In this document: positions 3 through 44,471 of the stretch, piece after piece | How the letters are laid out: each line of letters starts with the position of its first letter | Position numbering within the stretch: the first letter of the stretch is position 1 | Assembly: GCA_964453435.1 (NCBI GenBank) | Contig: CAYVQZ010000003.1 | Span: forward strand, 24,690-88,689 | DNA from: an uncultured bacterium | Lineage (GTDB): Bacteria; Abyssobacteria; SURF-5 | Reading direction: 5' to 3' | DNA length: 64,000 nucleotides | Program-made: the position numbers and the translations under genes | The notes under the pieces: generated by a model | Told to the model about the DNA's origin: nothing | Databases searched by the model: none | The model's input: only the letters and a program-made list of their open reading frames with translations

Positions 3-983
3 ATGACAAGCGGCCTTGAGTTCCGTATTCCCGACGAGGACTTTCGGCTGGCCGTTCAGGGCGCAACGCGCATAGGCACGGTTTCCGATGCCTGCCGCCT
101 GCAGTTTTTGGAGTATTGTTCGTCGAGGCAGGTCGATTCACCCGAGGCGGTCGTCGTGCATAACGGTATCCACGTTCCGAGCGGCAACGATGCCGAAACG
201 GTAATGAAGGAGCCGGTCCAACTCCTTGCCATTGGCAACTTGGCCCCCCACAAAGGATACGATTTTCTCATCGAGGCGTTGGGTCTGCTCACATCCCGGG
301 CGCGCGGAGCCGAGCTGACTGTCCTCGGTGATGGAGACTCCCGGTATTTCGCAAGACTTTGGGAGAAGGCCGAAGACACGGGCGTTGCCGAACGCATACA
401 TTTTCTCACGGCTCAGGCAGACACGGGCGGCTGGACACAAGAAGCAGACATCGTAGTGAATCCGTCCGTCGTGGAGAATTTTAGTCTTTCCGTTGCCGAG
501 GCCATGGCATACGCCAAGCCAATCATTGCCACTGACGTCGGCGCAATCCGCGAATTCTTTGTGGATGGGGAGACGGGATTGATTGTGCCGCCGGCGAATC
601 CCGATGCTCTGGCGCAGGCAATTCTTCGATTTATGGAAGACCCCCGGTTCGCGCGTGAATGCGGAGAACGAGCCAGGGACCATATTGCCCGGAACTTTCC
701 TCTGTCAAAACAGGTCGAGCGGATGGAGCGGCATTATCTCGAACTGGCCGACACCGCCACCGGCAAAGATGTTGACTGTCTTCCGCTGCTTGTGGACGGT
801 CTGATTTCCGTAAGCGAGAAAATCGCCGAACTGGAAAATGAAATCGAACGTCGACACGCCTTTCTGTCCGAATACCTTGAGAACGTGGAACGGGACATCA
901 GGACGCTGGAGGGCGTCGTTGATAACTTGCTGCAGAAGTTTCCTCTGAGGCTATACCGGAAAATAACGCGGTTGTTCAAATGA
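3..983 (+). CDS. Glycosyltransferase, GT-B fold / family 4-like, 5'-truncated by window edge, with C-terminal coiled-coil tail
   Basis: The ORF runs off the left edge. The translation has the GT4 C-terminal half (NPSVVENFSLSVAEAMAYAKPIIATDVGAIREFFVDGETGLIV, E-x7-E region). The last ~65 aa are heptad-like (EKIAELENEIERRHAFLSEYLENVERDIRTLEG) and end in LYRKITRLFK. Confidence 0.85.
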   Translation: MTSGLEFRIPDEDFRLAVQGATRIGTVSDACRLQFLEYCSSRQVDSPEAVVVHNGIHVPSGNDAETVMKEPVQLLAIGNLAPHKGYDFLIEALGLLTSRARGAELTVLGDGDSRYFARLWEKAEDTGVAERIHFLTAQADTGGWTQEADIVVNPSVVENFSLSVAEAMAYAKPIIATDVGAIREFFVDGETGLIVPPANPDALAQAILRFMEDPRFARECGERARDHIARNFPLSKQVERMERHYLELADTATGKDVDCLPLLVDGLISVSEKIAELENEIERRHAFLSEYLENVERDIRTLEGVVDNLLQKFPLRLYRKITRLFK

Positions 984-1127
984 AGAACCTGATGCGTCGC
1001 GCATCCCGCGGCGACCCAAAGAGGGCGCAAACCGAGAGTATGAACAGACCAAAATCGGTTCGGATTCTCAACATTGCCGAAACGGTGACAGATAATCGAG
1101 CACGCTGTATGCCAGAAGGATAAAATC

Positions 1128-2471
1128 GTGAGAATCGGAATTGACGGAACTCTGCTTCATAGGAAGGTAACGGGCACGGAAAGATATATCCGGAACATTT
1201 TCTGGAGCCTGTGCCAGTTGGAGTCCGAGCACGAATTCGCTCTCTATAGCCGAACTCCTCTCTACTCTTCCAATGAGCTTCCCAAAAATGCGCAAGAGCG
1301 TTCGTTTCCGTCATCAATCGACATGGTGACGTCGGATTTCTTGCAAGATGAGGGCTGTGCGGTCGACCTCTACCACATGACATGGGTTGGAACACGGTTT
1401 GCGGATTTGCTTCCGCTGTATTTGGCGCCCGCATCGATGCTCACGGTGCTCGACCTGATGCTCTATCGGAATTCCTCCTATTTCGAGACCGACAATCTCC
1501 ACCAGGATTACCGACGACGGTGCGAACTTGCCATCGACCTCGCCGATTTTGTTGTCGCCATTTCACAGCACACAAAATCCGATGTTCTCGCCAATTTCGA
1601 TATCGAGCCGGACAAGGTCAAAGTGATTCTCTTGGCAAGCGACAGTCGATTCGGAAAACTCAATGACTCCCGGAGCATCGAGCGGGTCAAAAAGGAATAC
1701 GGAATCGACAAACCTTTTTTGTTCTATTTGGGGACAGATTACCCTCACAAAAATCACGAGAATCTCCTGTTGGCTTTTCGGTATCTCTTGAAAGAGCGGC
1801 GTCTGTCCGCGCAACTTGTGCTGGCAGGGGCCCGGCGATACTGTAAAGGCTCGGCTCACATAGAGCGTTTGATTTCCGAACTCCAACTGGGCAACCACCT
1901 TATATGGCTGGAGCACATAACGGATGAAGAACTGAATGTCCTGTATAATGCGGCAGAACTGTTTGTGTATCCTTCGCTGGATGAGGGATTTGGGATTCCC
2001 CTGCTCGAGGCGATGGCCTGCGGCACACCGGTGGTCGCTTCACGGGTCGCCTCCATGCCGGAAGTCGCCGGCGAGGCTGCCGTATACTTCGATCCCGCCG
2101 ACGTGAATGATATGGCGGCGGCAATAGAGCGGGTATGGTCTGACCCTGGTCTGAGACAGGAACTGGTCGAATTGGGCTACAGGCGGAATCGGGAATTCAC
2201 ATGGGAAAAGACCGCCCGGCAAACGCTTGCTCTCTATGAGGAAGCGAAACGGATTGTGAATGGCCGCCGCGACAGCTTTGCTACGGACGGCTATCTAACG
2301 AAGCTGATAGACGAAATGCTGAAGGAATACAAGAGGCTCGAGCAAGATCGCGCCAAATTGGAGAGGTCGCTCGAATTAAGAGAACGGCATTTGCGGATGC
2401 TTCTGGGGACAGGGGCTATTCAAACCTACCGCAAAGCCAGGGACACGATCCGAAGAATCACGGGACGCTGA
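1128..2471 (+). CDS. Glycosyltransferase family 4-like (GT-B) with C-terminal coiled-coil/basic tail
   Basis: GTG start. N-terminus is MRIGIDGTLLHRKVTGTERY. The donor-binding half has VYPSLDEGFGIPLLEAMACGTPVVASRVASMPEVAG. It is a paralogue of 7874..9241. The tail is LKEYKRLEQDRAKLERSLELRERHL...QTYRKARDTIRRITGR. Confidence 0.9.
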   Translation: MRIGIDGTLLHRKVTGTERYIRNIFWSLCQLESEHEFALYSRTPLYSSNELPKNAQERSFPSSIDMVTSDFLQDEGCAVDLYHMTWVGTRFADLLPLYLAPASMLTVLDLMLYRNSSYFETDNLHQDYRRRCELAIDLADFVVAISQHTKSDVLANFDIEPDKVKVILLASDSRFGKLNDSRSIERVKKEYGIDKPFLFYLGTDYPHKNHENLLLAFRYLLKERRLSAQLVLAGARRYCKGSAHIERLISELQLGNHLIWLEHITDEELNVLYNAAELFVYPSLDEGFGIPLLEAMACGTPVVASRVASMPEVAGEAAVYFDPADVNDMAAAIERVWSDPGLRQELVELGYRRNREFTWEKTARQTLALYEEAKRIVNGRRDSFATDGYLTKLIDEMLKEYKRLEQDRAKLERSLELRERHLRMLLGTGAIQTYRKARDTIRRITGR

Positions 2472-2478
2472 AAATAGA

Positions 2479-3762
2479 ATGCCGATTGATTCAACACAAC
2501 TTGGTTCGCCTCCGGCAAGCCTGGTCATCACCAATTACAACGGCCGCCGTTTTCTTGAGAAATACCTCCCGAGCGTTGTCGCGGCCGCTGACCGGTACCG
2601 GGGCGAAACAGAGATAATCGTGGCGGACGATTGCAGCACCGACGACAGCGTCGCCTTCTTGCAGAAACATTATCCCGAGGTTCGCATTGTTTTAAAAGAG
2701 AAAAACTGCGGCTTTTTAAAAAATGCCAATCACGGGGTGAATTGTGCACGACATAAAATTGTAATTCTCCTGAACAATGACGTCAAAACAGAGGAGGACT
2801 TCATATCGCCATTGATAACTCATTTCCAGGACCCAAATGTTTTTTCCGTGAATCCCAAAGGCATCTTGCCAAGACTCGGATATGCCAATGAAAGTTTCAC
2901 CCGTGCTATTTTCAGAAACGGTGTGTTGCACCGCCTGCAGATGGGTATTGAACGAGATGACGATGAATTCTACACCGAACCGCAACCGTGTCTTTATGCA
3001 TGCGGAGGATATGCGGCTTATGACAAGGAAAAATTCCTGCTTCTCGGGGGATTTGACGAACTTTTCGCCCCGAATTTTGCAGAAGACTTCGACCTCGGCT
3101 ACATGGCATGGAAGGCAGGCTGGGAAAATCTCTACGAACCAAGAAGCGTCGTCTACCACGAGAGCCACGCAACCGTGGGAGACGACCCCGCACGCGAGGT
3201 CAGAAATCACATTCTTATCACATGGAAAAACACCGACGATGTTCGGCTATGGCTAAAACACGTCATCTTCTTCGCAGCGATTCATTTCATCGCTGTCATC
3301 TCGCAGAACCCATTTGCCGCATTGCACGCAAGACAATTTCGCTCTGCGCTTTCTCGCTTTCCGACAGCTATGCGGAGCCGGCGGAAAAGGAAGAAGATTC
3401 CCACAAAAAAAACCGACCGAGACATCTTAACCGCGCTGTCTGCTCCTCCTCGCGGGAAAGCGCGCTACCAAAACGCAGTTTATCACGGTCAGAAGCTTGG
3501 TACCCGCCAGGTCGGGAATTTGCTTAGGGAACAAGGTCCCTCAAAGAGCGCGATTACGGAGACTCTGAAACCACAATGGTCAGAATGGCTCGCGACATAT
3601 GCCGGAGACTATGAAGCTCGACTTGAACTCTTTCGCGCTCTTCGAAACGAGAAACAGCAGAGAGAAAGATACCTCAAAAGCCTTTTGGGAGAGCGACTAC
3701 TTCGCACCTATAAATTTTGGAAGCATAATCTTAGGAGAGTTTTGGACCTGATGAAGGCTTGA
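2479..3762 (+). CDS. Glycosyltransferase family 2 (GT-A) with long C-terminal extension ending in coiled-coil/basic tail
   Basis: N-terminal GT2 signature (LVITNYNGRRFLEKYLPSVV...IIVADDCSTDDS...LLNNDV) and a DxD-like FAEDFDLGY. The C-terminal ~150 aa are not GT2-like: a basic stretch RSRRKRKKIPTKK, then ARLELFRALRNEKQQRERYLKSLLGERLLRTYKFWKHNLRRV. Confidence 0.9.
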   Translation: MPIDSTQLGSPPASLVITNYNGRRFLEKYLPSVVAAADRYRGETEIIVADDCSTDDSVAFLQKHYPEVRIVLKEKNCGFLKNANHGVNCARHKIVILLNNDVKTEEDFISPLITHFQDPNVFSVNPKGILPRLGYANESFTRAIFRNGVLHRLQMGIERDDDEFYTEPQPCLYACGGYAAYDKEKFLLLGGFDELFAPNFAEDFDLGYMAWKAGWENLYEPRSVVYHESHATVGDDPAREVRNHILITWKNTDDVRLWLKHVIFFAAIHFIAVISQNPFAALHARQFRSALSRFPTAMRSRRKRKKIPTKKTDRDILTALSAPPRGKARYQNAVYHGQKLGTRQVGNLLREQGPSKSAITETLKPQWSEWLATYAGDYEARLELFRALRNEKQQRERYLKSLLGERLLRTYKFWKHNLRRVLDLMKA

Positions 3763-3802
3763 TACAGACCGGCAGGGCTTGCTTCACGGAGTAAGAAAAC
3801 AA

Positions 3803-6058
3803 TTAAAAATAGCCAACAGCCCGTAACTGTTTCCTTAACTCTTCGTCGAGTTCCGTATTCTGATGTTTCTGCTTTCTGTATCTCTTGCTTTCCGCAGCGA
3901 AATCATGAATAGTTGAAAGCATTTCCTCCGCTCTCTCCTCGCCAATGCGGTTGACAGTCTCTGTGGGATCAAGGTGCAAATTATATAACTCGTCTCGGCG
4001 CTCGTCCAGGTTTGTGTGAAGATATGGTTTGATTGAATCTGCATAATGGATATAAACGTAAGAGTTGCGGTACAACGCCACAATGCCCAGTTCCGGCTGT
4101 TCAGTGACAATATCCCGCATCGAACCCATCGCCTTCGCTTTGGTATCGAAGGCGGAAACACCCTGAAATGTTTCCGGGACTGGCAAGCCACAAATATCGA
4201 GGATTGTGGGTGCAATATCAAGAGAGCTTATCCTCTCTTCGGTATATGCGCTGGTTCTCTCCGAAGAACCCGCCGGCAGCTTGAATATGAGAGGGACTCG
4301 CACCTGTTCTTCATAAGGGATATTTCGGTGATACCATGCAGTGAAATCCGAATCATGCACTTCGCCGAACGATTCTCCATGATCGGATGTGAAAACTATC
4401 AATGTATCGCGATACAACCCTTTGGATTTAAGATGGACCAAGAATTCCTCCAATTCTTTGTCGGTCACACTGACGGCTCCGTTATAGAGATTTTTAATAA
4501 ACTTGGAATCTGCTTCGCTGATATCATATTCTCTCAAATTAAAGCCTAACTTCTGCAATACTTTGCCGAAATTTGACATCCTGAACATTCCCTTGTAATC
4601 ATTATCGGAATACAGTTTGTGGTGGTCCCTCACGGCAACGTAATCATGTACCTCATAAGTATGGAGAAAGAGAAAGTGGCGAGTTTCTTCGTGATCGTTT
4701 ATCCAATGCCTAGCCCGATCGAAAATCTCCTTTGCCTCATTGGCTTTTCCCCCGATGTGTCGCTCATAATACGAATCAAACCCTTTGGAAAAGCCAAATC
4801 GAGACGAAATCCAGAGGTCCCCGGTAAACGCTGCGGTTGCATAATCGAAGCTCTGAAATATCTCCGAAAGGGTTGTCAAAGGAAATTCTCGCACTTCCAA
4901 GTTTGCATCATTTATACCGTGATAAGAGGGGTATAAAGAGGTCATTATGGACATGTGAGATGGCAATGTCCAAGTAGCAGGCGCAACTACATTCTTGAAA
5001 AGTATTCCGTCTTTTGCGAGCGCATCGATTCCCGGGGTCGACCTGAAGTGACCATACGCTCCGACATGGTCCGCCCGCAGCGTATCGATGGATATAAGTA
5101 TCACATTCGGGAACGTGGCATCGTTCCGGGCTACCATACGGGGCTGTGTGAATGCAATAAGGTATCCCGGCTCGAGCCAAGGGGGTTCCAAGCATTGCTT
5201 AAGTTTCTGCATCAATTCCACCGGCCTGCACTCAACTTCCACCGTCATTTCCTCTTCGCTCTCCAGACCGAGACCAAAGCGTACTTCTTGCCATGTATCG
5301 ACCATCTGGACTGACGCAGACTTTTTCTCGATGACATTGCCCCCCTCGTCTCTCAGGGTAATACTAACACGAAAATGCTTCTCCCAATCATCCAGAAAAT
5401 CTACAGGACCGACCGCGAGACAAAGCTTTCCTCCCGGGAGCGGCTTAATCTTCTTCGGAAACTTGTATGGCAGGCTTGGATGCCACGGAACCGCCCGCCG
5501 CGTTACATGGTCAATCGTCAAGTTAGCCCATTGTCCGGATTGTTTGTAAGCACGACGATATGATAGTTGATGCACATATAAGAGAAGCACGACGCCGACC
5601 AGAATCAAAAAGAGTCGGCCGCCGGAAAATACATGTTTGCGTTGGCCTGCATCCCACAAGACCTTTGCCAGCGCCACTCCTTGAGCTGCGAGAAACAAGA
5701 GGGAAACGAGAAGCGCCATGTGGCGGAAGCTGCTCTGCCAATCAAAGAACAGAATCTGCCTCGCCAAGGGATACAAGAAAAAAACGACTAGGCTGGCAAA
5801 GGGGAGTGAAAAAGATTTCCGCACTCCCTCCCTCGATTTGGCAAGCAAGTGTGCGAGGACAAAAGATTGCACCTCCCATATTAGATGCGCCGCAAGCGCG
5901 AAAAGAGCCATAAGAATGAGAAGTCGAACGTTTATGAGAGAATCAAAGCCACGCTCGAATTTGCGAAACTGAACGAAAAATCCCACTCCGCACCCGCCGA
6001 GAGCGGTCAAGAGAAAATAATAGGATCCAACCCCCTTTCGCTCTTTCGCCAAACGCAT
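3803..6058 (-). CDS. Membrane-anchored sulfatase-fold (alkaline-phosphatase superfamily) protein, Thr-type, paralogue P1
   Basis: 751 aa. The N-terminal ~170 aa have about five hydrophobic segments. The C-terminal half has sulfatase-family blocks (ISIDTLRADHVGAYGH, VFTSDHGESFG), but the signature reads WTLPSHMSIMTSLYPSYHG instead of C/S-x-P-x-R. The protein ends in LRAVGYF. Confidence 0.85.
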   Translation of the reverse strand: MRLAKERKGVGSYYFLLTALGGCGVGFFVQFRKFERGFDSLINVRLLILMALFALAAHLIWEVQSFVLAHLLAKSREGVRKSFSLPFASLVVFFLYPLARQILFFDWQSSFRHMALLVSLLFLAAQGVALAKVLWDAGQRKHVFSGGRLFLILVGVVLLLYVHQLSYRRAYKQSGQWANLTIDHVTRRAVPWHPSLPYKFPKKIKPLPGGKLCLAVGPVDFLDDWEKHFRVSITLRDEGGNVIEKKSASVQMVDTWQEVRFGLGLESEEEMTVEVECRPVELMQKLKQCLEPPWLEPGYLIAFTQPRMVARNDATFPNVILISIDTLRADHVGAYGHFRSTPGIDALAKDGILFKNVVAPATWTLPSHMSIMTSLYPSYHGINDANLEVREFPLTTLSEIFQSFDYATAAFTGDLWISSRFGFSKGFDSYYERHIGGKANEAKEIFDRARHWINDHEETRHFLFLHTYEVHDYVAVRDHHKLYSDNDYKGMFRMSNFGKVLQKLGFNLREYDISEADSKFIKNLYNGAVSVTDKELEEFLVHLKSKGLYRDTLIVFTSDHGESFGEVHDSDFTAWYHRNIPYEEQVRVPLIFKLPAGSSERTSAYTEERISSLDIAPTILDICGLPVPETFQGVSAFDTKAKAMGSMRDIVTEQPELGIVALYRNSYVYIHYADSIKPYLHTNLDERRDELYNLHLDPTETVNRIGEERAEEMLSTIHDFAAESKRYRKQKHQNTELDEELRKQLRAVGYF

Positions 6059-6342
6059 CCTCCCGTCTCTATTTCTTCCTCATACTGCCTATCATGAAAG
6101 AGGATATGGTCAAATTGGAAAACGCAATGTCAAAAGGTCATGTTGGTGCGACAGCCAGCTATTGGCTTCAGTACTATACGTGCGGGACTCTATTTTTTTC
6201 CTGCTCTGTGAAACCGTATAGGACAGGTTGTTACGACCCGCGTAATTCATGCTTTGACAATGCGGTCATTTTTCAAATTGGTTTGAATGGGATAAAAATC
6301 TGCTCTCAGCATGACTTAACAAAAGAAAGCAGGAGCCTTTGC

Positions 6343-7371
6343 CTAAAAAACGCTTTTAATCCTTGCAAGTGTCTCTTCCATTTGCACAAGCAGTGTCATC
6401 CACTCGATATTATAATAGCGTGGATTCAAAAAATCGGTAAAACCATGCTCCAAGACCCGCTCGACCATATTTTCGGCTGATTCCTTCACCGGCATGGTTG
6501 GCTTGAAGCCGAGCACTGTTTCAATCTTCTGTCCGGTAACTCTATAACTCCGAGCTTTATAATGTGAATAGTCCACATTGATATCGAGTTTCACTCTGTG
6601 TTTGAGTGCCTCGCGTGTATAATGCGCAAGTTCCAAAATGCGGTAGTTTTTGAAAACAAGATTAAAAATTTGTCCTCTTACCTTGTCTTCCGGTGCCTCG
6701 ACGCAGCAGATGTGTGCCTTAGCAACGTCGGTCACATCAACTAATGGACGCCACATTTCTCCGCCGCAAAATACCGTGAGCGTCCCCTTTGTGAGCGCAT
6801 CCTTTACAAATGTGTTCACCACAAGGTCGTACCTCATGCGCGGACTGAACCCATAGACCGTCCCCTGTCTCAGGATTACCGGACAAAAATTTTCGTCGCA
6901 CAAATCGAGCAACATTTTCTCTGCCTCATAGTTTGAAATCGCATAGGCAGCCCGTGGTGCGACCTGAGCGTTTTCGTCATAGAGCAGGTCTTCGGCGAAT
7001 AGGCCGCGGTCATAAATCGAGCATGTTGAAGCAAACGTGAACCGCCTTATCCCCCGTTCCTTGCACGCTTTTGCGAGAACACCAGTGGCCACCGCATTCA
7101 TCTCGTGATTTGCGCTCGGGTTGAATTCGGCGGTAGGGTCATTAGATAAGCCGGCGAGGTGAACCACGGAGTCGATACCGTCAAGCCACTTCGGTTCGAT
7201 ATACCTGATGTCCCCTTGGACCAGGTCGATTTTGTCCCTGCAATCTTTCAGGCCTTCGTCGCCAAAGTAAAGCTTGTCCACTACCCTCACGGCCTCCCCT
7301 TTGGCAAGAAACTCCGCCACTAAAACACATCCAATATATCCCGCACCGCCAGTTACCAAGATCATAATCAA
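6343..7371 (-). CDS. NAD-dependent epimerase/dehydratase (extended SDR) for nucleotide-sugar modification
   Basis: N-terminal Rossmann motif ILVTGGAGYIGCVLV. Catalytic Y-x3-K is in AYAISNYEAEK. The 342 aa length is typical of UDP-sugar 4-epimerase/dehydratase-like SDRs. Confidence 0.85.
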   Translation of the reverse strand: MIMILVTGGAGYIGCVLVAEFLAKGEAVRVVDKLYFGDEGLKDCRDKIDLVQGDIRYIEPKWLDGIDSVVHLAGLSNDPTAEFNPSANHEMNAVATGVLAKACKERGIRRFTFASTCSIYDRGLFAEDLLYDENAQVAPRAAYAISNYEAEKMLLDLCDENFCPVILRQGTVYGFSPRMRYDLVVNTFVKDALTKGTLTVFCGGEMWRPLVDVTDVAKAHICCVEAPEDKVRGQIFNLVFKNYRILELAHYTREALKHRVKLDINVDYSHYKARSYRVTGQKIETVLGFKPTMPVKESAENMVERVLEHGFTDFLNPRYYNIEWMTLLVQMEETLARIKSVF

Positions 7372-7873
7372 GCCTCTATTTGCTTTTTCCTACTCGCCGA
7401 GGTTTTTTCATCTGCTTTTTTTCCAAAGCATATTCATCGCCATAACATGCCGGAAAATTTTATTAAACCAATTTGCGCTCACTTTAGCAGATAAATAAAG
7501 AAAAGTCAAAGATCTGTGATGGCAAAGCATGTTTCTTGAAATCAACATTTTTGACAGCCACTGCTTACCTCGGCCATCCTTGCCCGAACTCATGAATGAA
7601 TCGTGAAGATTCGGACTGTGGCAATATGGCGAACTCTTGCGCATCGAGAGCTTAACGGGTGGAATTGGGGGAAAAAATCATATAGAATAAAGCACACCAA
7701 TGGCCAGGTCCTGCGGCAGAAATCATTCATCCTCAATGCAAGTGTATTTATTAAAATGAATTCCGAGAAGGACCTCTCGCTGATTGTGGTAACGGTCACA
7801 TCCCGCAAGCGAAGCCGCAACTCTCGGACCGCGCCTTTTTTACAACGTCGTTAGACAAGAGGGGAAAAGTTCC

Positions 7874-9241
7874 ATGAAAGTCGGGATCGATGGAAGACTC
7901 TTATTCAGGAACATAACCGGCCAGGAGCGATATGTATGGAACCTGTGTAGCCATTTAAAGAATAGCCCTGGTGCCACGTTTGTGCTCTACACCACCAGTC
8001 CCTTTCCGCAAATCGAACAATTGCGGCCACGTTTTTCGGAAAGCGTTATAGGTGTTGGACCAAAACTCGCCGGTCGAGTTCTCTCCTGTGAGGAAAACAT
8101 CGACCTCTATCACCTCTGTTGGCCGGGCTACACGGTTATGGACAGCTTGCTGCTTCTCCTGATGCCTCGATCCATATACACCCCGCATGACCTTGTTCAA
8201 TATAAGAACCCACAGTATTTCCCGAGCCGATTCGCCCATGAGCGATACAGGCAGATGATTAGCCTGAGTTGCCGCTGGGCGGATAAGGTCATAACTGTCT
8301 CAAACCACTCGAGGCGCGACATCATTGAAACGCTGAAGATTCCTCCTGATAAAGTGAAGGTGATTTATGAAGGGGTGGACCCGAAATTCAAAGTCATCGA
8401 CGACAGGAGCAAGCTCGAGAAGGTTCGCAAGAAGTTCGAACTAAAGGGGAGGTTGATCTTTAATCTGGCAACTGATTATCCACACAAAAACGCCGGAAAT
8501 CTCATACGCGCCTTCAGCGAACTGTCACGGACAGAAGATGAACCGCTCGAGCTCATTATCGCAGGCCAGCGTTATGACCGGAAAGGGTCCGAGGAGATCA
8601 GCCGATTACTCGAGGAGGTTCCTTATCGCGAGAATATTCGGTGGCTCAATCATCTGGCCGACGACGACATCCTGTCGCTTTACAATATCGCCGATGTGTT
8701 CGTGAACCCTTCGCTGTTCGAGGGATTCGGGCTTACGGTGCTCGAGGCGATGGCCTGCGGCGCGCCGGTAGTGGTTTCCGACGCCACCTCGCTTCCGGAG
8801 GTGGCCGGTGACGCCGCGCTGACTGTAGATGCCCGCGATGTTGAAGAAATCGTTCAGGCAGTCAAGGAGCTGCTGCACAATCCCCTTTTGCGAAACAGCC
8901 TCATCGAGAAAGGCTTCAAACAAGTCGAACGATTCAGTTGGGAAAGAACAGCGAGAGAAACCCAGAGCGTATATGAAGACGTTTGCCGAACGACTCCCGC
9001 CCGTGGAACCGACGGACTGCCCGAACCAATGAAGCAATGGCTCCGCCGACATCTGGTCGTGGCCGCGGGGATGGAGGAAGAAATCGGCGTCTTAAGCGCT
9101 CGGATTGACCGTATCGACGCCAGGCTGGCCAGGCTTCGGGCATCCGTCCCCGGCCAAATGTACAGAACCGCGCGGCGCGCGGTTCGCCGAAGCAAGAACG
9201 ACGGTTCCGAGAGCCCGGCGAATAACAAAACGAGGGAATGA
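7874..9241 (+). CDS. Glycosyltransferase family 4-like (GT-B) with C-terminal coiled-coil/basic tail
   Basis: N-terminus is MKVGIDGRLLFRNITGQERY. The donor-binding half has VNPSLFEGFGLTVLEAMACGAPVVVSDATSLPEVAG. It is a paralogue of 1128..2471. The tail is EEEIGVLSARIDRIDARLARLRASVPGQMYRTARRAVRRS. Confidence 0.9.
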   Translation: MKVGIDGRLLFRNITGQERYVWNLCSHLKNSPGATFVLYTTSPFPQIEQLRPRFSESVIGVGPKLAGRVLSCEENIDLYHLCWPGYTVMDSLLLLLMPRSIYTPHDLVQYKNPQYFPSRFAHERYRQMISLSCRWADKVITVSNHSRRDIIETLKIPPDKVKVIYEGVDPKFKVIDDRSKLEKVRKKFELKGRLIFNLATDYPHKNAGNLIRAFSELSRTEDEPLELIIAGQRYDRKGSEEISRLLEEVPYRENIRWLNHLADDDILSLYNIADVFVNPSLFEGFGLTVLEAMACGAPVVVSDATSLPEVAGDAALTVDARDVEEIVQAVKELLHNPLLRNSLIEKGFKQVERFSWERTARETQSVYEDVCRTTPARGTDGLPEPMKQWLRRHLVVAAGMEEEIGVLSARIDRIDARLARLRASVPGQMYRTARRAVRRSKNDGSESPANNKTRE

Positions 9242-9451: not shown

Positions 9452-11692
9452 ATGAGAGGAAAAACATTCCGTAGCTCATATTGTTACCTGGCGATTATAG
9501 TCGGCGGTTCAGGAGTCGGCTTCCTTGTCCAGTGCCGAAAATTCGAGGGCGGATTCGACTCCCTTCTGAATGTGCGGCTGTTCATCCTCATGGCTTTTTT
9601 TTCGTTGGCGACATACCTTGCATGGGAACTTGAATCTCTTGTTCTCGCACGCTTGTTTGCCCTATCGCGACAGGAGGTCAAAAAGTGGTTTTCCCTGAGC
9701 TTTCTGGCGCTTGCCATGTGCTTCCTGTACCCCTTGGCGCGACGCCTTGTATTTACAAATTGGCAGACCGGCTTCCGATACATGGCGCTTTCTGTTTTCC
9801 TGTTGTTTCTGGTGGCGCAGACGATTGCGTTCGCCCGCATTATGCGGATTGCGAGGAAACGGAGAGAGACATTTTACTGGGGACACCTCATCATGATTGT
9901 GCTCTGCATGGCAGGGCTTTATTCGATTCATCAGATGTCCTACTCTCGCGCCCACAGTGGAACATGGTCTGACGTGACGATTGACCATGTCACTCGGCGC
10001 GCCGTTATTTGGTGTGCGGGCAAGCCATACAGATTTTTCCACAATGTCAAACACCGCCCCGAAGCGGAGTTTTGTTTCGCTGTCGGTCCTGTGAAGATGT
10101 CCGGCGCACAGAACGAACAGTTTCGGCTTGAACTCACGTTGAGAAACAAAGACGGCGCTCGCATCGAGAAAAAATCTCTCACAATGCAAATGGGCGACCA
10201 GTGGGAGGAAGTGAGTTTTGAAATCGGGGTGAAGCAAGAGAACGAAATCTCGGCGGAAATTCGCTTCACCCCCGCGGGAGTCCTGCAGAAAATGCAACAA
10301 CTGGTGGCGGGGCTACCCTGGCGCGAGCCGGAAGGATTGATCGCATTCACTCAGCCTCGAATGGTGGCGCGACAGAGTAACGCTTTCCCGAATGTTGTTC
10401 TCATATCGATTGACACATTGCGCGCCGATCATGTCGGAGCATACGGGCATTTCAGGGCAACGCCGGGGATCGATATGCTCGCGAAGGACGGCATGGTTTT
10501 CACTAACGTAATTTCGGCGGCCACGTGGACGCTGCCTTCTCATATGTCAATGATGACTTCCTTATATCCCGCATATCATGGTTTGAACAAATATGAATCT
10601 CAGGTATCGAATCTGCCCTATGAGACTCTGGCTGGTGTATTCCAAGCTAATGGATACGCATGCGCGGCCTTCACCGGAGCAGCGCTTGTTTCTTCGAAAT
10701 ACGGGTTCTCGAAGGGTTTTGACTCATATTATGAGGAGAAGAAGCTCGGAAGGGAAGCGAACGAGGCGGAGGAAGTTTTCCGTCGGACGACGGAGTGGAT
10801 GGGAAAGCACGGACGGAGGCGGTTTTTTCTCTTTGTGCACACATTCGAGGCGCATGATTATCCGGCGGTAAAAGAAGCCCACAGTATATTCACAGACCCT
10901 GCCTACCAAGGTATCTTTCAGGAACCCTTCCTGTGGGTTCTCGAGAGGTTTCGCGTGTGGTGGAAGGGGAGTTACGATACGGTCTCGTACGGAATCACAG
11001 AAGAAGATGTCACACATGTAAAGGACCTATACGACGGTGGAATCAGAGTCACGGACAGAGAATTGCAGAAATTTCTGATTTTTCTCCGCACGCGGGACCT
11101 ATATGAGAATACACTTATTGTTCTTACCTCCGACCACGGCGAATCATTTGGAGACCCACACAACAACGCGAGCATTACGGCATGGAATCATATCAATATT
11201 CCGTACAGGGAACAAGTATGGGTGCCACTGGTGATGAAGCCACCCTCCACCCTGGGAATTTCCCAGGGAATGTCATTCGACGAGCGGATAAGCTCGCTTG
11301 ATATCGCGCCGAGTATATTAGAAATTTGCGGCCTATCAATTCCCGAACAGTTCATGGGTATTCCTGTTGTGGATGCGCTGCTCGAGGGGAACTATGATTC
11401 GAAACGGAGCCTTTTCGCGGAGGAACCACTGTGGGGCGCTGTCGCGCTGTATACCGACACCACGGCGTACATACATTATCCCGACCGCGATCGCGACGAC
11501 GAACTCTACGACATGCAGAATGACCCGAATCAAACACGAAACCTCATCGACACGGTCCAAGCGAAGCCGGAGCTGGAAATCCTCAAGCAACACCTCCGCG
11601 AGGGCACAGGTTACAGAGAAGAAATGCTGGAGACGGTTGAGGAGATGGACGCGGAGCTTGAGAAGAATTTGAGAGCCCTCGGTTACCTGTGA
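9452..11692 (+). CDS. Membrane-anchored sulfatase-fold protein, Thr-type, paralogue P2
   Basis: 746 aa, collinear with P1 and roughly 60% identical by eye. It has the same N-terminal motif GSGVGFLVQCRKFEGGFDSLLNVRL. The signature is WTLPSHMSMMTSLYPAYHG, with the Thr codon at 10529-10531. The protein ends in LRALGYL. Confidence 0.85.
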   Translation: MRGKTFRSSYCYLAIIVGGSGVGFLVQCRKFEGGFDSLLNVRLFILMAFFSLATYLAWELESLVLARLFALSRQEVKKWFSLSFLALAMCFLYPLARRLVFTNWQTGFRYMALSVFLLFLVAQTIAFARIMRIARKRRETFYWGHLIMIVLCMAGLYSIHQMSYSRAHSGTWSDVTIDHVTRRAVIWCAGKPYRFFHNVKHRPEAEFCFAVGPVKMSGAQNEQFRLELTLRNKDGARIEKKSLTMQMGDQWEEVSFEIGVKQENEISAEIRFTPAGVLQKMQQLVAGLPWREPEGLIAFTQPRMVARQSNAFPNVVLISIDTLRADHVGAYGHFRATPGIDMLAKDGMVFTNVISAATWTLPSHMSMMTSLYPAYHGLNKYESQVSNLPYETLAGVFQANGYACAAFTGAALVSSKYGFSKGFDSYYEEKKLGREANEAEEVFRRTTEWMGKHGRRRFFLFVHTFEAHDYPAVKEAHSIFTDPAYQGIFQEPFLWVLERFRVWWKGSYDTVSYGITEEDVTHVKDLYDGGIRVTDRELQKFLIFLRTRDLYENTLIVLTSDHGESFGDPHNNASITAWNHINIPYREQVWVPLVMKPPSTLGISQGMSFDERISSLDIAPSILEICGLSIPEQFMGIPVVDALLEGNYDSKRSLFAEEPLWGAVALYTDTTAYIHYPDRDRDDELYDMQNDPNQTRNLIDTVQAKPELEILKQHLREGTGYREEMLETVEEMDAELEKNLRALGYL

Positions 11693-11873: not shown

Positions 11874-14135
11874 TTGATGCGTCCCGACGGAGCGCCGATG
11901 GCGCGCGGAGCCGAGCATGCGAAGTGTTTAATCACCGCTCTGTTGGCCGGCGCGGCCCTTGGATTTGTTGTTCAGTACCGCAAATATGAGAAGGGGAACG
12001 ACACGCTGGTGAACTGGTCGCTGCCCATTCTCATTATTACGTTTGCGGTTTGCCTTGTGTGCGGGTGGATGCTGTGGACGCGCGTTCTGCAACATGTCTC
12101 TTCCAGATCGTCTCTAGAAGCGCACAAGGCCGCATCAAAACCGTTTCTTCCGGCAATCCTGCTCTTTCTGTACCCCCTTTTCGGATTCATGCCTGTGGAA
12201 ATACGATTTAAGGTTGCCGTTCTCGGCGCCGGAGCGGCAGGCATGTTGGTAGCGGCCGTGGACCTGATAAGGAACCGCAACGGATTAAGAGCAATCAGCG
12301 CTCGGCAGATGGTGGCGCTTTCACTGCTCTTTCCGGCATCCGCAGGCTCTGCCGTTGCCGGAAATATTGTGCACAATCTCCAGAAGAATCTGGCTTGCGC
12401 GCGGACAGAGGTTCGAGAATTGAATGCTCTATCCCGTGACCTCGAAGACCTGTCGATTGAACGCAATATTCGAAGCGTCTTCACGGTGAACAGGCAGACC
12501 GCTTTCAACCTTCAGGCCCAATTAAAACAGAAGCCGTTTCTCGTGTTCAGTTTGGCATCGAGGAATCCGGACCATGCACCGGATTACTATCGCGTGCGCA
12601 TCGATGTGGAAACGGAAACGGGTGAAGAAGAGTTTTTGATTGACGCGGTATCAGCGGATAAATGGGATGATTTCATCTATGACTTGGGCAATTTTGAAAA
12701 TCAGGCGGCGGGCTTTCGCTTTCGGGTGTTTATTAACCAATCGCTTCCACGACACGGCTTATTGACTCCTGCGTGGAATTGGCAAAAGGAAAAGTGCTTC
12801 AACCTGGCAATGACACCACCTCGAATCATTCATGGACTTGCTTCGGACAAAGATTTTAATGTCGTTCTAATCAGCTTGGACACCCTTCGGGCCGACCATC
12901 TCTCCGTTTACGGTTATTCGCGAGACACCAGCCCGAATCTGGCGCAATTAGCTGAAGAGGGAATTGTCTTCACCAATTTCTTCAGCCCCTCCACGTGGAC
13001 ATTGCCCGCGCATGTTTCGCTTTTTACTTCTCTTTATCCCTCTGCCCACCGTGTCCACAACCCCCAGAAGGAGGTCAAGAGTCTGAATTTCCAGACGCTG
13101 GCCCACCTTCTCCGCGGCGGTGGCTATTATACCGTCGCGTTCACCGATTCCGGATTCGTGGGTTCGGCATACAAATTTCACCACGGCTTCGACCAGTTCG
13201 ACGAAAGGGGATATGGCATCGAGGAAAATGTCGATAAGGCGTGTCATTGGGTAAGAAATAGCGGAGGGCTCAAGTTTTTCTTATTTTTGCATACATTCGA
13301 AATCCACGATTACTTCTTCCTGCGACCCGAGCACCGAAATCCATACGCGTCGCATTACGATGGCAGAATCAAAGACAGTTTCCGCGATTTCGCGACCCAG
13401 CCGAAAGTCAGAAAAGCATTCGAGCTGCGTCCTGAAGACATCCAATTTATGATTGACCTCTACGATGGAGCTATTCGATATACGGATGAGGCGCTCCGGA
13501 AGTTCTTTGAATGTCTAAAGCATACAACTGTGTATGATGACACGATGATACTTGTTCTCTCCGACCACGGAGAGTCATTCAACGAATTTCACAATAACGG
13601 CAGGTCCGTGGCGTGGCATCACGGCGGGCTTCCCTACGAGAGCATGATACACGTTCCCATGGTCATGAAACCACCGCTCCATTTGGGGGTCGAGCAAAAG
13701 GTTCTCGAGGGACCGTATTCGCTCATCGACATCATGCCGACTCTCGCAGAACTTCTGAACCTGCAGCCTGAAAACCAAGTGCAGGGGGTCTCCTTTGCGT
13801 CTGCTCTCTTTGGGAGAGAAAGCGGCGAAAGCCGTCCGGTTATCTCGCTGCCCGCCCAGGAACGGTTGAATGCCGTTTTGGGCGTGAGAACAAACGATCT
13901 TAAATATATCGCGCACGGCAGCGGGCGAAAAGAATTATATAACCTGAGGAACGACAAGCGGGAACAGGTCAACCTGGCGGATGATGAAAACTTCGAAAGT
14001 GAGCTGCAAACCTTTTCGGCGATTCTCGACTCTTACCTGGAAGACTGTGAAGGTTTTGACAGGCACGCGGAGTTTGGAGAAGAAATACCCGAAAATGTGA
14101 GGGCCGAACTGAAAGCTCTTGGATATCTTCAATAA
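11874..14135 (+). CDS. Membrane-anchored sulfatase-fold protein, Thr-type, paralogue P3
   Basis: The ORF opens TTG-ATG (ATG at 11877, preceded by GGGGGGA). It has about five N-terminal hydrophobic segments (AGAALGFVVQYRKYE motif). Other blocks are LISLDTLRADHLSVYGY, WTLPAHVSLFTSLYPSAHRV and VLSDHGESF. The protein ends in LKALGYLQ. Confidence 0.85.
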   Translation: MMRPDGAPMARGAEHAKCLITALLAGAALGFVVQYRKYEKGNDTLVNWSLPILIITFAVCLVCGWMLWTRVLQHVSSRSSLEAHKAASKPFLPAILLFLYPLFGFMPVEIRFKVAVLGAGAAGMLVAAVDLIRNRNGLRAISARQMVALSLLFPASAGSAVAGNIVHNLQKNLACARTEVRELNALSRDLEDLSIERNIRSVFTVNRQTAFNLQAQLKQKPFLVFSLASRNPDHAPDYYRVRIDVETETGEEEFLIDAVSADKWDDFIYDLGNFENQAAGFRFRVFINQSLPRHGLLTPAWNWQKEKCFNLAMTPPRIIHGLASDKDFNVVLISLDTLRADHLSVYGYSRDTSPNLAQLAEEGIVFTNFFSPSTWTLPAHVSLFTSLYPSAHRVHNPQKEVKSLNFQTLAHLLRGGGYYTVAFTDSGFVGSAYKFHHGFDQFDERGYGIEENVDKACHWVRNSGGLKFFLFLHTFEIHDYFFLRPEHRNPYASHYDGRIKDSFRDFATQPKVRKAFELRPEDIQFMIDLYDGAIRYTDEALRKFFECLKHTTVYDDTMILVLSDHGESFNEFHNNGRSVAWHHGGLPYESMIHVPMVMKPPLHLGVEQKVLEGPYSLIDIMPTLAELLNLQPENQVQGVSFASALFGRESGESRPVISLPAQERLNAVLGVRTNDLKYIAHGSGRKELYNLRNDKREQVNLADDENFESELQTFSAILDSYLEDCEGFDRHAEFGEEIPENVRAELKALGYLQ
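12909..12985. repeat. 77-nt block identical to 15387..15463 (inside P3)
   Basis: Hand alignment: tacggttattcgcgagacaccagcccgaatctggcgcaattagctgaagagggaattgtcttcaccaatttcttcag is identical in both paralogues. The flanking sequence diverges. Confidence 0.9.
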
Positions 14136-14369
14136 CATCTTGAGCTACGGCGAGGCGCTTTATTTACGGTATTAGGCGGTTGCTTTTTTTATGTCTCGGT
14201 CTGCCAGCGCTCGTGGCAGTGGCATATGACGCCAGGGCGGACTCGAAGAACCGGATGTCGACCAAGTTCTACGGAACAGAATTTCGCACAGACCGGACAG
14301 GCGGGTATAAAGGTGGGGGAAAACTTGATTCACAGAGGTAGTTCGTCGGTGGCGCGCAGAGTGGAGCGC

Positions 14370-34765: not shown

Positions 34766-34816
34766 GGCTTTGTCCTTTGTTGTATTCGATGAAAGCGGCT
34801 TCGTTCAGCCTTTTGT

Positions 34817-41056: not shown

Positions 41057-41102
41057 TTTGTTTGCTCGGTTTGTGAATCCTTTCAGATACTTGTTTCGGC
41101 TA

Positions 41103-44100: not shown

Positions 44101-44456
44101 TGGTCGGAGGTGTGGTTCACGACCAGTTCGGTGATGACACGCAGGCCGCGCCTGTGGGCCTCCCGCAAAAACGCCCTGAAGTCGCGTATTGTTCCATACG
44201 ATGGATGGATCCCCCGATAGTAGGATATGTCATAGCCGTCATCCTTCAAAGGCGACGGGCAGAACGGCAGCAGCCAGATTGCGCCGACACCCAGGTCGTG
44301 AAGGTAGTCAAGTTTTTCGATCAGCCCCTTGAAATCACCTATGCCGTCGCCGTCGCTGTCCCGAAACGCTTTGACATGCAGTTCATAAATCACGCTGTCT
44401 TTGTACCACAGGGGATCGTCTTCCAATGCCGTTAATTCGGCCTTTCGGTCGGCCAT
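41103..44456 (-). CDS. treS: Trehalose synthase fused to maltokinase (TreS-Pep2/Mak)
   Basis: The N-terminal GH13 TreS has [29 protein letters not shown] and [10 protein letters not shown]. The C-terminal ~450 aa are kinase-like and carry [25 protein letters not shown]. Total length is 1117 aa. Confidence 0.9.
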
Positions 44457-44471
44457 ATCAACTCCTGAGTT

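What the first reader, a model, noticed from the sequence alone, without database searches (positions are those of the whole stretch)
786..9241. Four glycosyltransferases of two different folds share a C-terminal coiled-coil plus basic Y-R/K tail
Seen in sequence: after their catalytic domains, all four enzymes have a ~60-80 aa heptad-rich segment followed by a short basic amphipathic motif. These are the GT4 at 3..983 (tail ~786-983: ...NEIERRHAFLSEYLENVERDIRTLEG...LRLYRKITRLFK), the GT4 at 1128..2471 (~2250-2471: ...KRLEQDRAKLERSLELRERHL...IQTYRKARDTIRRITGR), the GT2 at 2479..3762 (~3526-3762: ...ARLELFRALRNEKQQRERYLKSLLGERLLRTYKFWKHNLRRVL), and the GT4 at 7874..9241 (~9026-9241: ...LSARIDRIDARLARLRASVPGQMYRTARRAVRRS). 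Established knowledge: coiled coils on polysaccharide enzymes can act as oligomerisation or ruler modules, as in WbdD, and terminal amphipathic helices tether such enzymes to the membrane. Inference: a shared tail on GT-A and GT-B enzymes suggests a common docking or assembly module. It may bring the four enzymes into one membrane-associated complex, possibly with the P1-P4 proteins.
Basis: partly seen in the sequence, partly recalled or inferred. Interest (0 to 1): 0.55.

Follow-up and report, generated by a model that had tools for sequence, protein, structure and literature searches.

The report
Shared coiled-coil membrane-anchor tail on glycosyltransferases
Four sugar-adding enzymes of two unrelated folds end in the same unannotated add-on, a short helical stalk, a hinge and a positively charged amphipathic helix, which most likely pins them to the inner face of the cell membrane, a small-scale multi-enzyme version of what is known for the O-antigen regulator WbdD.

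Summary
The ORFs, quoted sequences and two folds are correct: three GT4/GT-B enzymes and one GT2/GT-A enzyme. Each carries a C-terminal extension that typical family members lack and that no Pfam, NCBIfam or PDB entry covers.

The shared part is a 25-45 aa heptad helix, shorter than the claimed 60-80 aa, then a Gly/Pro/Ser hinge and a 13-23 aa cationic amphipathic helix with an invariant Tyr.

Homology is supported without circularity for GTa, GTb and GTc by leave-one-orthogroup-out profiles. A GT4-only profile finds the GT2 tail at E=8e-6. A methyltransferase-only profile from other metagenomes finds GTa at E=2e-8. GTd fails the tail-only test, but it is a full-length paralogue of GTb and aligns collinearly through the tail.

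Related metagenomic loci, including one Ca. Abyssobacteria MAG, carry the tail on methyltransferases as well. One such locus lies beside Wzm/Wzt. An exhaustive profile search of 1.84 billion proteins found it only in this small clade.

Best reading: a lineage-restricted, shuffled module that tethers, and probably oligomerises, cytoplasmic glycan-assembly enzymes at the membrane, analogous but not detectably homologous to the WbdD C-terminus. A single four-enzyme complex or a link to P1-P4 is not supported. This is a new variant of a known kind, of moderate interest.

The parts
3..983 (+). GTa: C-terminal 326 aa of a 439-aa GT4 (GT-B) glycosyltransferase. The start lies upstream of the window.
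   Evidence: Pfam PF00534/PF13692. Full-length protein P0242 and upstream locus L007.
807..938 (+). GTa heptad (coiled-coil-like) helix, aa 269-312 in window numbering
   Evidence: a/d heptad test p=0.008. Aligned heptad positions are conserved across 15 tails.
939..980 (+). GTa hinge (FP) plus terminal cationic amphipathic helix LRLYRKITRLFK
   Evidence: Net charge +5, muH 0.84, p=0.007 against shuffles. Found at E=2.4e-8 by an HMM built only from methyltransferase-borne tails of other metagenomes.
1128..2471 (+). GTb: 447-aa GT4 (GT-B) glycosyltransferase, MtfB/WbdB-like by the name of a relative
   Evidence: Pfam. AF2 pLDDT 93. Foldseek hits MshA, GlgM and PimB'. A relative is named 'MtfB-like'.
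2292..2405 (+). GTb heptad helix, aa 389-426
   Evidence: AF2 predicts a single helix 388-446. Orthogroup hydrophobicity periodicity peaks at 3.5 residues. Orthologues carry 7-residue indels.
2406..2468 (+). GTb hinge (GTG) plus terminal helix AIQTYRKARDTIRRITGR
   Evidence: Net charge +5, muH 0.55. The core 416-444 is 47% identical among orthologues, against 16-28% for the linker and coil.
2479..3762 (+). GTc: 427-aa GT2 (GT-A) glycosyltransferase
   Evidence: Pfam PF00535. In the AF2 model the GT-A core is confident to about aa 320. Foldseek hits ppGalNAc-T2.
3607..3687 (+). GTc pre-hinge helix, aa 377-403. The heptad signal is not significant.
   Evidence: AF2 helix 375-403, pLDDT about 50-60. 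No significant heptad window in the GTc tail.
3688..3759 (+). GTc hinge (G404) plus terminal helix ERLLRTYKFWKHNLRRVLDLMKA
   Evidence: AF2 breaks the helix at G404 and predicts helix 405-426. A profile built only from GTb-orthogroup tails finds this tail at E=8e-6 as the best non-self hit of 885 ORFs. Net charge +6.
7874..9241 (+). GTd: 455-aa GT4 (GT-B), a full-length paralogue of GTb
   Evidence: Pfam. BLASTP against GTb: 36% identity, E=3e-97, collinear from residue 1 to 439.
9071..9145 (+). GTd heptad helix, aa 400-424
   Evidence: Best heptad score of the four, 0.95, p<0.002.
9146..9238 (+). GTd hinge (VPG), basic helix QMYRTARRAVRRS, and a 15-aa polar trailer KNDGSESPANNKTRE
   Evidence: Net charge +5, muH 0.72, p=0.018. 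Tail-only profile membership is not met (E=53). It aligns with the GTb tail in the full-length comparison.

Best explanation
The tails are copies of one lineage-restricted, unannotated C-terminal module that has been shuffled onto different cytoplasmic glycan-assembly enzymes: two GT4 lineages, a GT2, and methyltransferases in related organisms. The module has four parts. First comes a variable linker. Second is a 25-45 aa heptad-patterned helix that probably forms a short coiled coil and acts as an oligomerising stalk or spacer. Third is a 3-5 residue Gly/Pro/Ser hinge. Fourth is a 13-23 aa amphipathic helix with a hydrophobic face built around an invariant Tyr and an opposite face of 5-7 Arg/Lys. 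The terminal helix most likely lies in the plane of the cytoplasmic membrane surface, with the aromatic and aliphatic face inserted and the Arg/Lys bound to anionic lipids. This would hold otherwise soluble enzymes next to the undecaprenyl-linked acceptor, with the stalk setting a stand-off of a few nanometres. It is a miniature version of the coiled coil plus amphipathic-helix arrangement of WbdD in ABC-transporter-dependent O-antigen assembly. Shown here: the module's anatomy, its positional conservation, common origin across folds, and its narrow distribution. Inferred: coiled-coil oligomerisation, membrane binding and the pathway type.
For: Common origin across folds:
- A profile of GT4 (GTb-orthogroup) tails alone finds the GT2 tail at E=8e-6.
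- A profile of methyltransferase-borne tails alone finds GTa at E=2.4e-8.
- hhalign of the two tail subtypes gives P=1.8e-5 in the motif register.
- Leave-one-orthogroup-out ranks GTa, GTb and GTc first among window ORFs.
- The tails share no DNA-level identity, so the sharing is old and not a recent copy.

Anatomy across 15 tails:
- Hydrophobic residues fall at -23, -19, -16, -12 and -9 relative to the invariant Tyr (3-4 spacing; 100% hydrophobic at -12, 93% acidic at -15).
- Pro/Gly/Ser are enriched at -7 to -4.
- Hydrophobic residues then fall at -3, -1, 0, +3, +6/+7 and +10, and basic residues at -2, +1, +2, +4, +8 (100%) and +9.
- The hydrophobic and basic wheel vectors point 197 degrees apart.

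Helices and heptads:
- AF2 predicts helix 388-446 in GTb, and helices 375-403 and 405-426 with a break at G404 in GTc.
- GTb orthologues show 3.5-residue periodicity and exactly 7-residue indels.

Constraint and specificity:
- The terminal core is 47% identical among GTb orthologues, against 16-28% for linker and coil and 59% for the catalytic domain.
- Only these four of 40 large window ORFs have such a C-terminus.

Context:
- Orthologous locus L006 has Wzm, Wzt (with Wzt_C) and a tail-bearing double methyltransferase.
- The WbdD precedent is described in PMC11231755 and PMC3447403.
Against: - No experiment or multimer model supports oligomerisation or membrane binding.
- Mean hydrophobicity of the terminal helices is low (-0.1 to -0.8 on the Eisenberg scale), and for 5 of 12 the amphipathic moment is not significantly above shuffles.
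- AF2 draws the GTb tail as one unbroken helix with pLDDT 68-90, and the GTc tail has pLDDT about 50-70.
- The GTc heptad signal is not significant.
- GTd is not recovered by tail profiles.
- No Wzm/Wzt was found from 10 kb upstream to the end of the window in this genome.
- Position-specific conservation, such as the invariant Tyr and the fixed 18-residue spacing from Glu to Tyr, is stronger than generic membrane-targeting helices usually show. This leaves room for a protein partner.
Confidence: 0.55

Rival explanations
1. The conserved end motif is mainly a docking peptide for a common protein partner, such as a scaffold, the Wzm/Wzt exporter, or the other tails in a hetero-oligomeric coiled coil. 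The enzymes would then assemble into one complex, and membrane association would be indirect.
For: Conservation is position-specific across enzyme types: an invariant Tyr, 100% basic at +8, 93% acidic at -15, and a fixed 18-residue spacing from Glu to Tyr. WbdD recruits the polymerase WbdA through its membrane-proximal region, and OPS enzymes form complexes (PMC11231755). Several enzymes of one cluster carry the tail.
Against: No partner was identified. Related loci carrying tails lack P1-P4-type genes within 10 kb. The number and identity of tail-bearing enzymes differ between loci. The GT2 orthologue has the tail in this genome and L001, but not in L004 or L006. GTb and GTd share the tail by duplication. 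The conserved residues map neatly onto hydrophobic and basic faces, as expected for lipid binding.
Confidence: 0.2
2. The tail serves homo-oligomerisation or regulation only. The basic helix would bind an anionic ligand (undecaprenyl-pyrophosphate, nucleotide-sugar or an acidic glycan) or fold back on the catalytic domain, rather than anchor the enzyme to the bilayer.
For: The terminal helices are very Arg-rich with low mean hydrophobicity. Coiled coils generally oligomerise. The best, non-significant PDB matches of the tail profile are designed trimeric coiled-coil peptides.
Against: Hydrophobic positions recur with helical periodicity on one face, with an interfacial Tyr. The same tail sits on enzymes with different substrates: GT4, GT2 and methyltransferases. 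In the AF2 models the tail is one long helix after the last catalytic-domain helix (DSSP); whether it contacts the catalytic domain was not examined.
Confidence: 0.12
3. There is no shared module. The resemblance is convergent composition: helical, charged C-terminal extensions are common on such enzymes, and the motif was picked out post hoc.
For: Raw pairwise scores are weak for most pairs, and GTc-GTd shows none. GTd fails the leave-one-out test. Other cluster enzymes also end in unrelated basic amphipathic segments, such as YVDLLWIEFLLKMRRMLRTRKK. Distant GT4s carry analogous but different tails.
Against: Independent profiles that exclude the target orthogroup recover GTa, GTb and GTc as the top hits among about 880 ORFs, always at the extreme C-terminus and in the same register. 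hhalign gives P=1.8e-5. The motif is conserved in orthologues at 48-58% identity, while the linkers diverge to 16%.
Confidence: 0.08

Closest known systems
WbdD (E. coli O9a / K. pneumoniae O3): chain-terminating kinase-methyltransferase of ABC-transporter-dependent O-antigen assembly
   Same: [quoted passage not shown] In related loci the same tail sits on methyltransferases next to Wzm and Wzt with Wzt_C.
   Different: The WbdD coiled-coil region spans about 250 aa (residues 460-708) and acts as a chain-length ruler on a single terminator protein. Here the stalk is 25-45 aa and is present on four glycosyltransferases at once. No sequence relationship was detected: the exhaustive profile search returned only this clade.
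K. pneumoniae O4 ORF7 (GT137 terminating Kdo-transferase), WbbB (O12) and ORF6 (O7)
   Same: These are glycosyltransferase-containing proteins of OPS pathways that carry a coiled coil. ORF7 of O4 has it at the C-terminus (PMC11231755).
   Different: In those systems the coiled coil marks the one terminator or ruler protein per pathway and is long. No shared tail on several enzymes of different folds is described there. No homology was detected.
C-terminal amphipathic membrane-targeting helices of peripheral bacterial proteins such as MinD and FtsA, and the TagA C-terminal appendage (from general knowledge, not checked in papers here)
   Same: A short terminal cationic amphipathic helix acts as a reversible in-plane membrane anchor for an otherwise soluble protein.
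   Different: Those helices are not preceded by a conserved coiled-coil end and hinge, and they are family-specific rather than a module shared among unrelated catalytic folds. Membrane binding of the present helix is untested.
Analogous tails on distant GT4 enzymes, for example the Spirochaetota MAG locus L012
   Same: A GT4 enzyme beside Wzm/Wzt has a C-terminal coiled coil followed by a basic amphipathic segment (LQQILTSKGWKLLNVLRKLKF) with a similar layout.
   Different: It is below detection by the tail profile, and only one enzyme in that locus carries it. Homology is therefore open.

Membership tests
GT4 / GT-B glycosyltransferases (GTa, GTb, GTd) | Glycos_transf_1 / Glyco_transf_4 domains and a two-Rossmann GT-B fold | tested here: met
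   Pfam E=1e-33 to 1e-36. GTb AF2 model pLDDT 93, Foldseek to MshA, GlgM and PimB' at E down to 1e-23.
GT2 / GT-A glycosyltransferases (GTc) | Glycos_transf_2 domain and a GT-A fold with a DxD region | tested here: met
   PF00535 E=3e-20. Foldseek to ppGalNAc-T2 E=1e-18. Conserved D101 (invariant) and D50 (nearly invariant) in alignment A4.
Coiled coil | Heptad a/d hydrophobic periodicity over at least 4 heptads in a helical segment | tested here: inconclusive
   GTa p=0.008 and GTd p<0.002. GTb p=0.07, but its orthogroup periodicity peaks at 3.5 residues and orthologues carry 7-residue indels. GTc is not significant. AF2 predicts helices. No dedicated predictor (MARCOIL, DeepCoil) was available.
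Coiled coil | Oligomer formation | not testable with these tools
   Only monomer AF2 was available. The oligomeric state is unknown.
WbdD-type coiled-coil ruler / scaffold of ABC-transporter-dependent glycan assembly | Genomic association with the Wzm/Wzt exporter | tested here: inconclusive
   Wzm and Wzt with Wzt_C lie 5 kb upstream of the GTb and GTc orthologues in L006, and beside an analogous GT4 in L012. None was found from -10 kb to +64 kb in this genome.
WbdD-type coiled-coil ruler / scaffold of ABC-transporter-dependent glycan assembly | Extended coiled coil (hundreds of residues in WbdD) separating the terminator active site from the membrane | tested here: not met
   Stalks are 25-45 aa. 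WbdD residues 460-708 form its coiled-coil domain (PMC3447403).
WbdD-type coiled-coil ruler / scaffold of ABC-transporter-dependent glycan assembly | C-terminal amphipathic membrane helix | tested here: met
   Met at the level of sequence prediction only. Net charge is +5 to +7, and hydrophobic and basic faces lie 197 degrees apart across 15 tails. Binding itself is untested.
WbdD-type coiled-coil ruler / scaffold of ABC-transporter-dependent glycan assembly | Chain-terminating activity (kinase/methyltransferase or terminal GT) on the coiled-coil protein | not testable with these tools
   In this window the tail sits on generic GT4 and GT2 enzymes of unknown role. In L004 and L006 it sits on methyltransferase-containing proteins.
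WbdD-type coiled-coil ruler / scaffold of ABC-transporter-dependent glycan assembly | Sequence homology of the tail to WbdD or other described families | tested here: not met
   The exhaustive hmmsearch of 1.84e9 representatives gave only clade members at E<=1e-3. No Pfam, NCBIfam or PDB match covers the tail.
The tail module itself (this clade) | Profile match to the E..L..LL - hinge - hR.YRKhR...RR core at the extreme C-terminus, using a model that excludes the tested orthogroup | tested here: met
   Met for GTa (E=1.7e-4; 2.4e-8 with the methyltransferase-only model), GTb (1.6e-3) and GTc (0.012; 8e-6 with the GTb-only model). Not met for GTd (E=53), which is linked only by full-length paralogy to GTb.

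The most novel reading that the evidence does not exclude
The tails form a heteromeric assembly code. The short coiled coils of GTa, GTb, GTc and GTd, and of the terminating methyltransferase in relatives, would pair with one another to build a single membrane-anchored glycan assembly line of defined stoichiometry and geometry. That would be a distributed, multi-stalk counterpart of the single WbdD ruler, evolved by shuffling one docking and anchor module among unrelated catalytic folds.
Probability: 0.15. Interest if true: 0.65.

Novelty: new variant of a known kind. Interest (0 to 1): 0.4.

Why it matters
How soluble glycosyltransferases are gathered at the membrane and coordinated during lipid-linked glycan assembly is understood for only a few model O-antigen systems. 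In those systems one long coiled-coil protein does the organising.

A compact, transferable stalk-plus-anchor cassette would be a different organisational solution. It is shared by GT-A, GT-B and methyltransferase enzymes in an uncultured lineage, whose only source-named relative is a Ca. Abyssobacteria MAG. The cassette is also a simple, testable handle: delete or swap about 50 residues. It is an unannotated module that could be added to domain databases.

The practical impact is modest. The principle of an amphipathic anchor plus a coiled coil is already established, and the module is confined to a small clade.

Tried and rejected
- The search for homologous proteins with the 15-tail alignment returned nothing, not even known members. 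One capped search was wasted, probably because of the word-index step.
- A genome scan with the upstream 339-aa protein, meant to reach further upstream in this genome and look for Wzm/Wzt, found nothing.
- A metagenome scan with GTd found no tail-bearing GTd orthologues: all matches end by residue 381. GTd tail conservation therefore rests on one truncated orthologue in L001.
- Pfam on isolated tails gave only sub-threshold coiled-coil noise. NCBIfam gave no equivalog for any of the enzymes.
- A post hoc regex for the motif was too dependent on how it was written. It missed GTb and GTd, so it is not used as evidence.
- Recent duplication or gene conversion of the tails is rejected because there is no DNA-level similarity.
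- A link to P1-P4 was considered and judged unsupported.
- The rest of the window (16.6-64 kb) holds housekeeping and alpha-glucan genes unrelated to the finding.

Full report
**1. Observation**

The four ORFs are present exactly as described, with the quoted C-termini. Pfam puts GT4-type domains (PF00534, PF13692, PF13439) on 3..983, 1128..2471 and 7874..9241. It puts GT2 domains (PF00535, PF13641) on 2479..3762. I call these GTa, GTb, GTd and GTc.

ORF 3..983 is the last 326 aa of a 439-aa protein that starts upstream of the window (P0242; locus L007). AlphaFold2 models with Foldseek confirm two folds. GTb is GT-B (pLDDT 93; MshA, GlgM and PimB' hits, E down to 1e-23). GTc is GT-A (ppGalNAc-T2 hits, E=1e-18).

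In every case the catalytic match stops well before the C-terminus. The remaining 65-105 aa match nothing in Pfam, NCBIfam or PDB sequences. The extension is not a family trait. Of the best 120 relatives of GTb, only about eight orthologues (48-55% identity, 435-469 aa) cover it. All others are about 375 aa and stop at 83% query coverage. Of the relatives of GTc, only one (P0002, 58% identity) covers it.

**2. Is it more than chance?**

Raw tail-to-tail Smith-Waterman scores against shuffles are strong only for GTb-GTc, the cross-fold pair (z=7.5). The other pairs give z=1.3-3.4, and GTc-GTd shows nothing. I therefore used orthologues to build non-circular profiles.

- A profile of GTb-orthogroup tails alone finds the GT2 tail of GTc as the best non-self hit among 885 six-frame ORFs (E=8e-6). 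It also finds the GTc orthologue P0002.
- A profile made only from two methyltransferase-borne tails from other metagenomes (L004, L006) finds the GTa tail at E=2.4e-8, the only significant hit in the window.
- hhalign of the two tail subtypes gives P=1.8e-5 over 35 columns in the motif register.
- Leave-one-orthogroup-out models rank GTa (1.7e-4), GTb (1.6e-3) and GTc (0.012) first among window ORFs. They fail for GTd (E=53, rank 133).

GTd is nevertheless a full-length paralogue of GTb. The two are 36% identical (E=3e-97), and the alignment runs from residue 1 through LGTGAIQTYRKARDTIRR / RASVPGQMYRTARRAVRR. Its tail is most simply inherited with the rest of the gene.

No other ORF in the window or in the 10 kb upstream carries the motif. 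At the architectural level, only these four of 40 large ORFs combine a net charge of at least +5 with a hydrophobic moment of at least 0.64 at the C-terminus (post hoc thresholds). The tails share no DNA-level similarity, so this is not a recent copy or gene conversion.

**3. Anatomy**

I aligned 15 tails from five enzyme contexts on the one invariant residue, a Tyr.

- Upstream, hydrophobic residues recur at -23, -19, -16, -12 and -9, which is 4-3-4-3 spacing. Occupancy is 86, 73, 40, 100 and 93%. Charged residues flank them (-15 is 93% acidic, -14 is 66% basic).
- Positions -7 to -4 are enriched in Gly, Pro and Ser. This is the hinge.
- From -3 onward, hydrophobic residues sit at -3, -1, 0, +3 (100%), +6/+7 and +10. 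Arg/Lys sit at -2, +1, +2, +4, +8 (100%) and +9.
- On a helical wheel the hydrophobic and basic vectors point 197 degrees apart.

Terminal helices carry net charge +5 to +7. Their moments are 0.36-0.84, and 7 of 12 are significantly above shuffles.

AF2 predicts GTb 388-446 as one helix (pLDDT 68-90). For GTc it predicts helices 375-403 and 405-426, with the break exactly at the hinge Gly404 but at low confidence.

Heptad tests give GTa p=0.008, GTd p<0.002 and GTb p=0.07; none of the windows in the GTc tail is significant. For GTb the orthogroup hydrophobicity profile has its dominant periodicity at 3.5 residues. Two orthologues differ by exactly one heptad, +7 and -7 aa, and the spacing from the conserved Glu to the Tyr is fixed at 18. 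The best PDB matches of the tail profile, though not significant, are designed coiled-coil peptides.

The heptad segment is therefore 25-45 aa, not 60-80 aa.

Among GTb orthologues the terminal core (coil end, hinge and helix) is 47% identical. The linker is 16%, the N-terminal part of the coil 28%, and the catalytic domain 59%. This is the pattern expected of a constrained end-piece on a spacer-like stalk.

**4. Distribution and context**

Related contigs show the same tail on other enzymes. They include one MAG that its source names Candidatus Abyssubacteria, which NCBI taxonomy places as class Ca. Abyssobacteria in phylum Hydrogenedentota.

- GTa orthologues (LLQKPPIRLYRAI).
- A 700-aa GT-methyltransferase fusion (LLSKWPVRVYRKLK).
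- A 521-aa double methyltransferase (IMSKLPIRAYMKIK).

The tail comes and goes on the GT2. It is present here and in L001, where a methyltransferase is fused N-terminally. It is absent from the 337-aa GT2 next to the GTb orthologue in L004, and from the L006 orthologue, which is fused to a B12/radical-SAM domain instead. This is domain-shuffling behaviour.

L006 has Wzm (ABC2_membrane) and Wzt (ABC_tran plus Wzt_C) 5 kb upstream of the tail-bearing methyltransferase, the GTb orthologue and the GTc orthologue. That points to an ABC-transporter-dependent, terminally modified glycan pathway. In the present genome I found no exporter between 10 kb upstream and the end of the window. The cluster ends near 16.6 kb, and the rest is housekeeping and alpha-glucan metabolism.

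An exhaustive profile search of 1.84 billion representative proteins returned only clade members at E<=1e-3: the GTb-orthogroup representative, a partial orthologue, GTc, GTa, and one spurious repeat protein. As far as a 50-position profile can see, the module is confined to this small lineage.

More distant GT4s carry analogous tails that fall below detection. One example is a Spirochaetota enzyme beside Wzm/Wzt ending in a coiled coil plus LQQILTSKGWKLLNVLRKLKF.

**5. Mechanism**

The best-supported reading is a stalk-hinge-anchor cassette. The terminal helix would act as an in-plane, electrostatically assisted membrane anchor with an interfacial Tyr. The heptad helix would act as a short oligomerising spacer. 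This would keep cytoplasmic enzymes at the membrane where the lipid-linked acceptor is. The anatomy, the conservation and the cross-fold homology are shown. Oligomerisation, lipid binding and pathway type are inferred.

The literature precedent is WbdD. [quoted passage not shown] In all studied OPS systems, coiled-coil proteins scaffold the complexes (PMC11231755; PMC3447403).

The main rival is that the conserved core is a docking peptide for a shared partner or for hetero-oligomerisation. This fits the unusually position-specific conservation and is not excluded. It lacks any identified partner. The specific P1-P4 suggestion is weakened because tail-bearing loci elsewhere have no sulfatase-like genes nearby.

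**6. Comparison and novelty**

Functionally this works like the WbdD C-terminus, but it is not a member of that family. The stalk is an order of magnitude shorter. It sits on several polymerising or adaptor-type enzymes rather than on one terminator. No sequence relationship is detectable.

Glycosyltransferases with C-terminal coiled coils are known, for example K. pneumoniae O4 ORF7 (PMC11231755). I found no description of one homologous tail shared by GT-A, GT-B and methyltransferase enzymes of a single cluster. I rate it a new variant of a known kind, of moderate interest (0.4).

The more novel possibility is that the tails are a heteromeric code building one assembly line. I put it at about 15% probability.

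Noticed in passing
window 3803-6058 (-), 9452-11692 (+), 11874-14135 (+), 14226-16625 (+): Four paralogous 746-799 aa proteins carry a PF00884 sulfatase-type domain (weak NCBIfam resemblance to arylsulfatase, EptA and LtaS) after a ~310-370 aa hydrophobic N-terminal region that has no Pfam match. They are interleaved with the GT genes. Equivalent genes are absent within 10 kb of tail-bearing genes in related loci L002, L004 and L006.
   Followed up: partly
L001 780-2849; L006 10803-12866; L004 6740-7753: The GTc orthologue changes architecture between relatives. In L001 a methyltransferase is fused N-terminally and the tail is kept. In L006 a B12-binding radical-SAM domain is fused C-terminally and there is no tail. 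In L004 a plain 337-aa GT2, taken to be the orthologue from its position after the GTb orthologue, has no tail.
   Followed up: partly
L006 2743-4806 and 6769-8334: Wzm and Wzt (with the Wzt_C carbohydrate-binding domain) are followed by a radical-SAM gene and a 521-aa double methyltransferase carrying the same tail. This methyltransferase is a candidate WbdD-like terminator in a relative.
   Followed up: partly
alignment A5 (GTb orthologues), columns 419-425 and 405-411: P0123 has a 7-residue insertion and P0124 a 7-residue deletion inside the stalk, each exactly one heptad. The spacing from the conserved Glu to the Tyr stays at 18 residues in all seven orthologues.
   Followed up: yes
L007 6404-7426 and 7575-8540 (upstream of the window): Two further cluster glycosyltransferases without the motif also end in basic, partly amphipathic segments (YVDLLWIEFLLKMRRMLRTRKK; FKMRMKRTLKSWLPMRGNA). 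Membrane-seeking C-termini may be general in this cluster.
   Followed up: no
L012 9980-11377 (Spirochaetota MAG); L016 11937-12284 (Acidobacteriota MAG): A distant GT4 beside Wzm/Wzt (L012) and an Acidobacteriota stop-to-stop ORF (L016) carry an analogous coiled coil plus basic tail (ILTSKGWKLLNVLRKLKF; ELTGSGSRLYKLVSKYYRLRRKLSG). Both are below profile significance. A wider, very divergent family is possible.
   Followed up: partly
window 30470-46529 (-): A block of alpha-glucan metabolism genes: GH77 4-alpha-glucanotransferase, several GH13 enzymes, GH57 with DUF3536, a 1117-aa TreS-maltokinase fusion, and GlgE. It is unrelated to the finding.
   Followed up: no
window 980-1123 (+): A 47-aa Arg/Lys-rich ORF lies between GTa and GTb and is called as a gene in the public assembly (L007 9853-9996). 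It has no family match on record and may be spurious.
   Followed up: no
GTc aa 255-275 (window about 3241-3303): A hydrophobic helix (RLWLKHVIFFAAIHFIAVISQ) follows the GT-A core. Many tail-less relatives have similar hydrophobic stretches at this position, so GTc may have a second membrane-interacting element independent of the tail.
   Followed up: no
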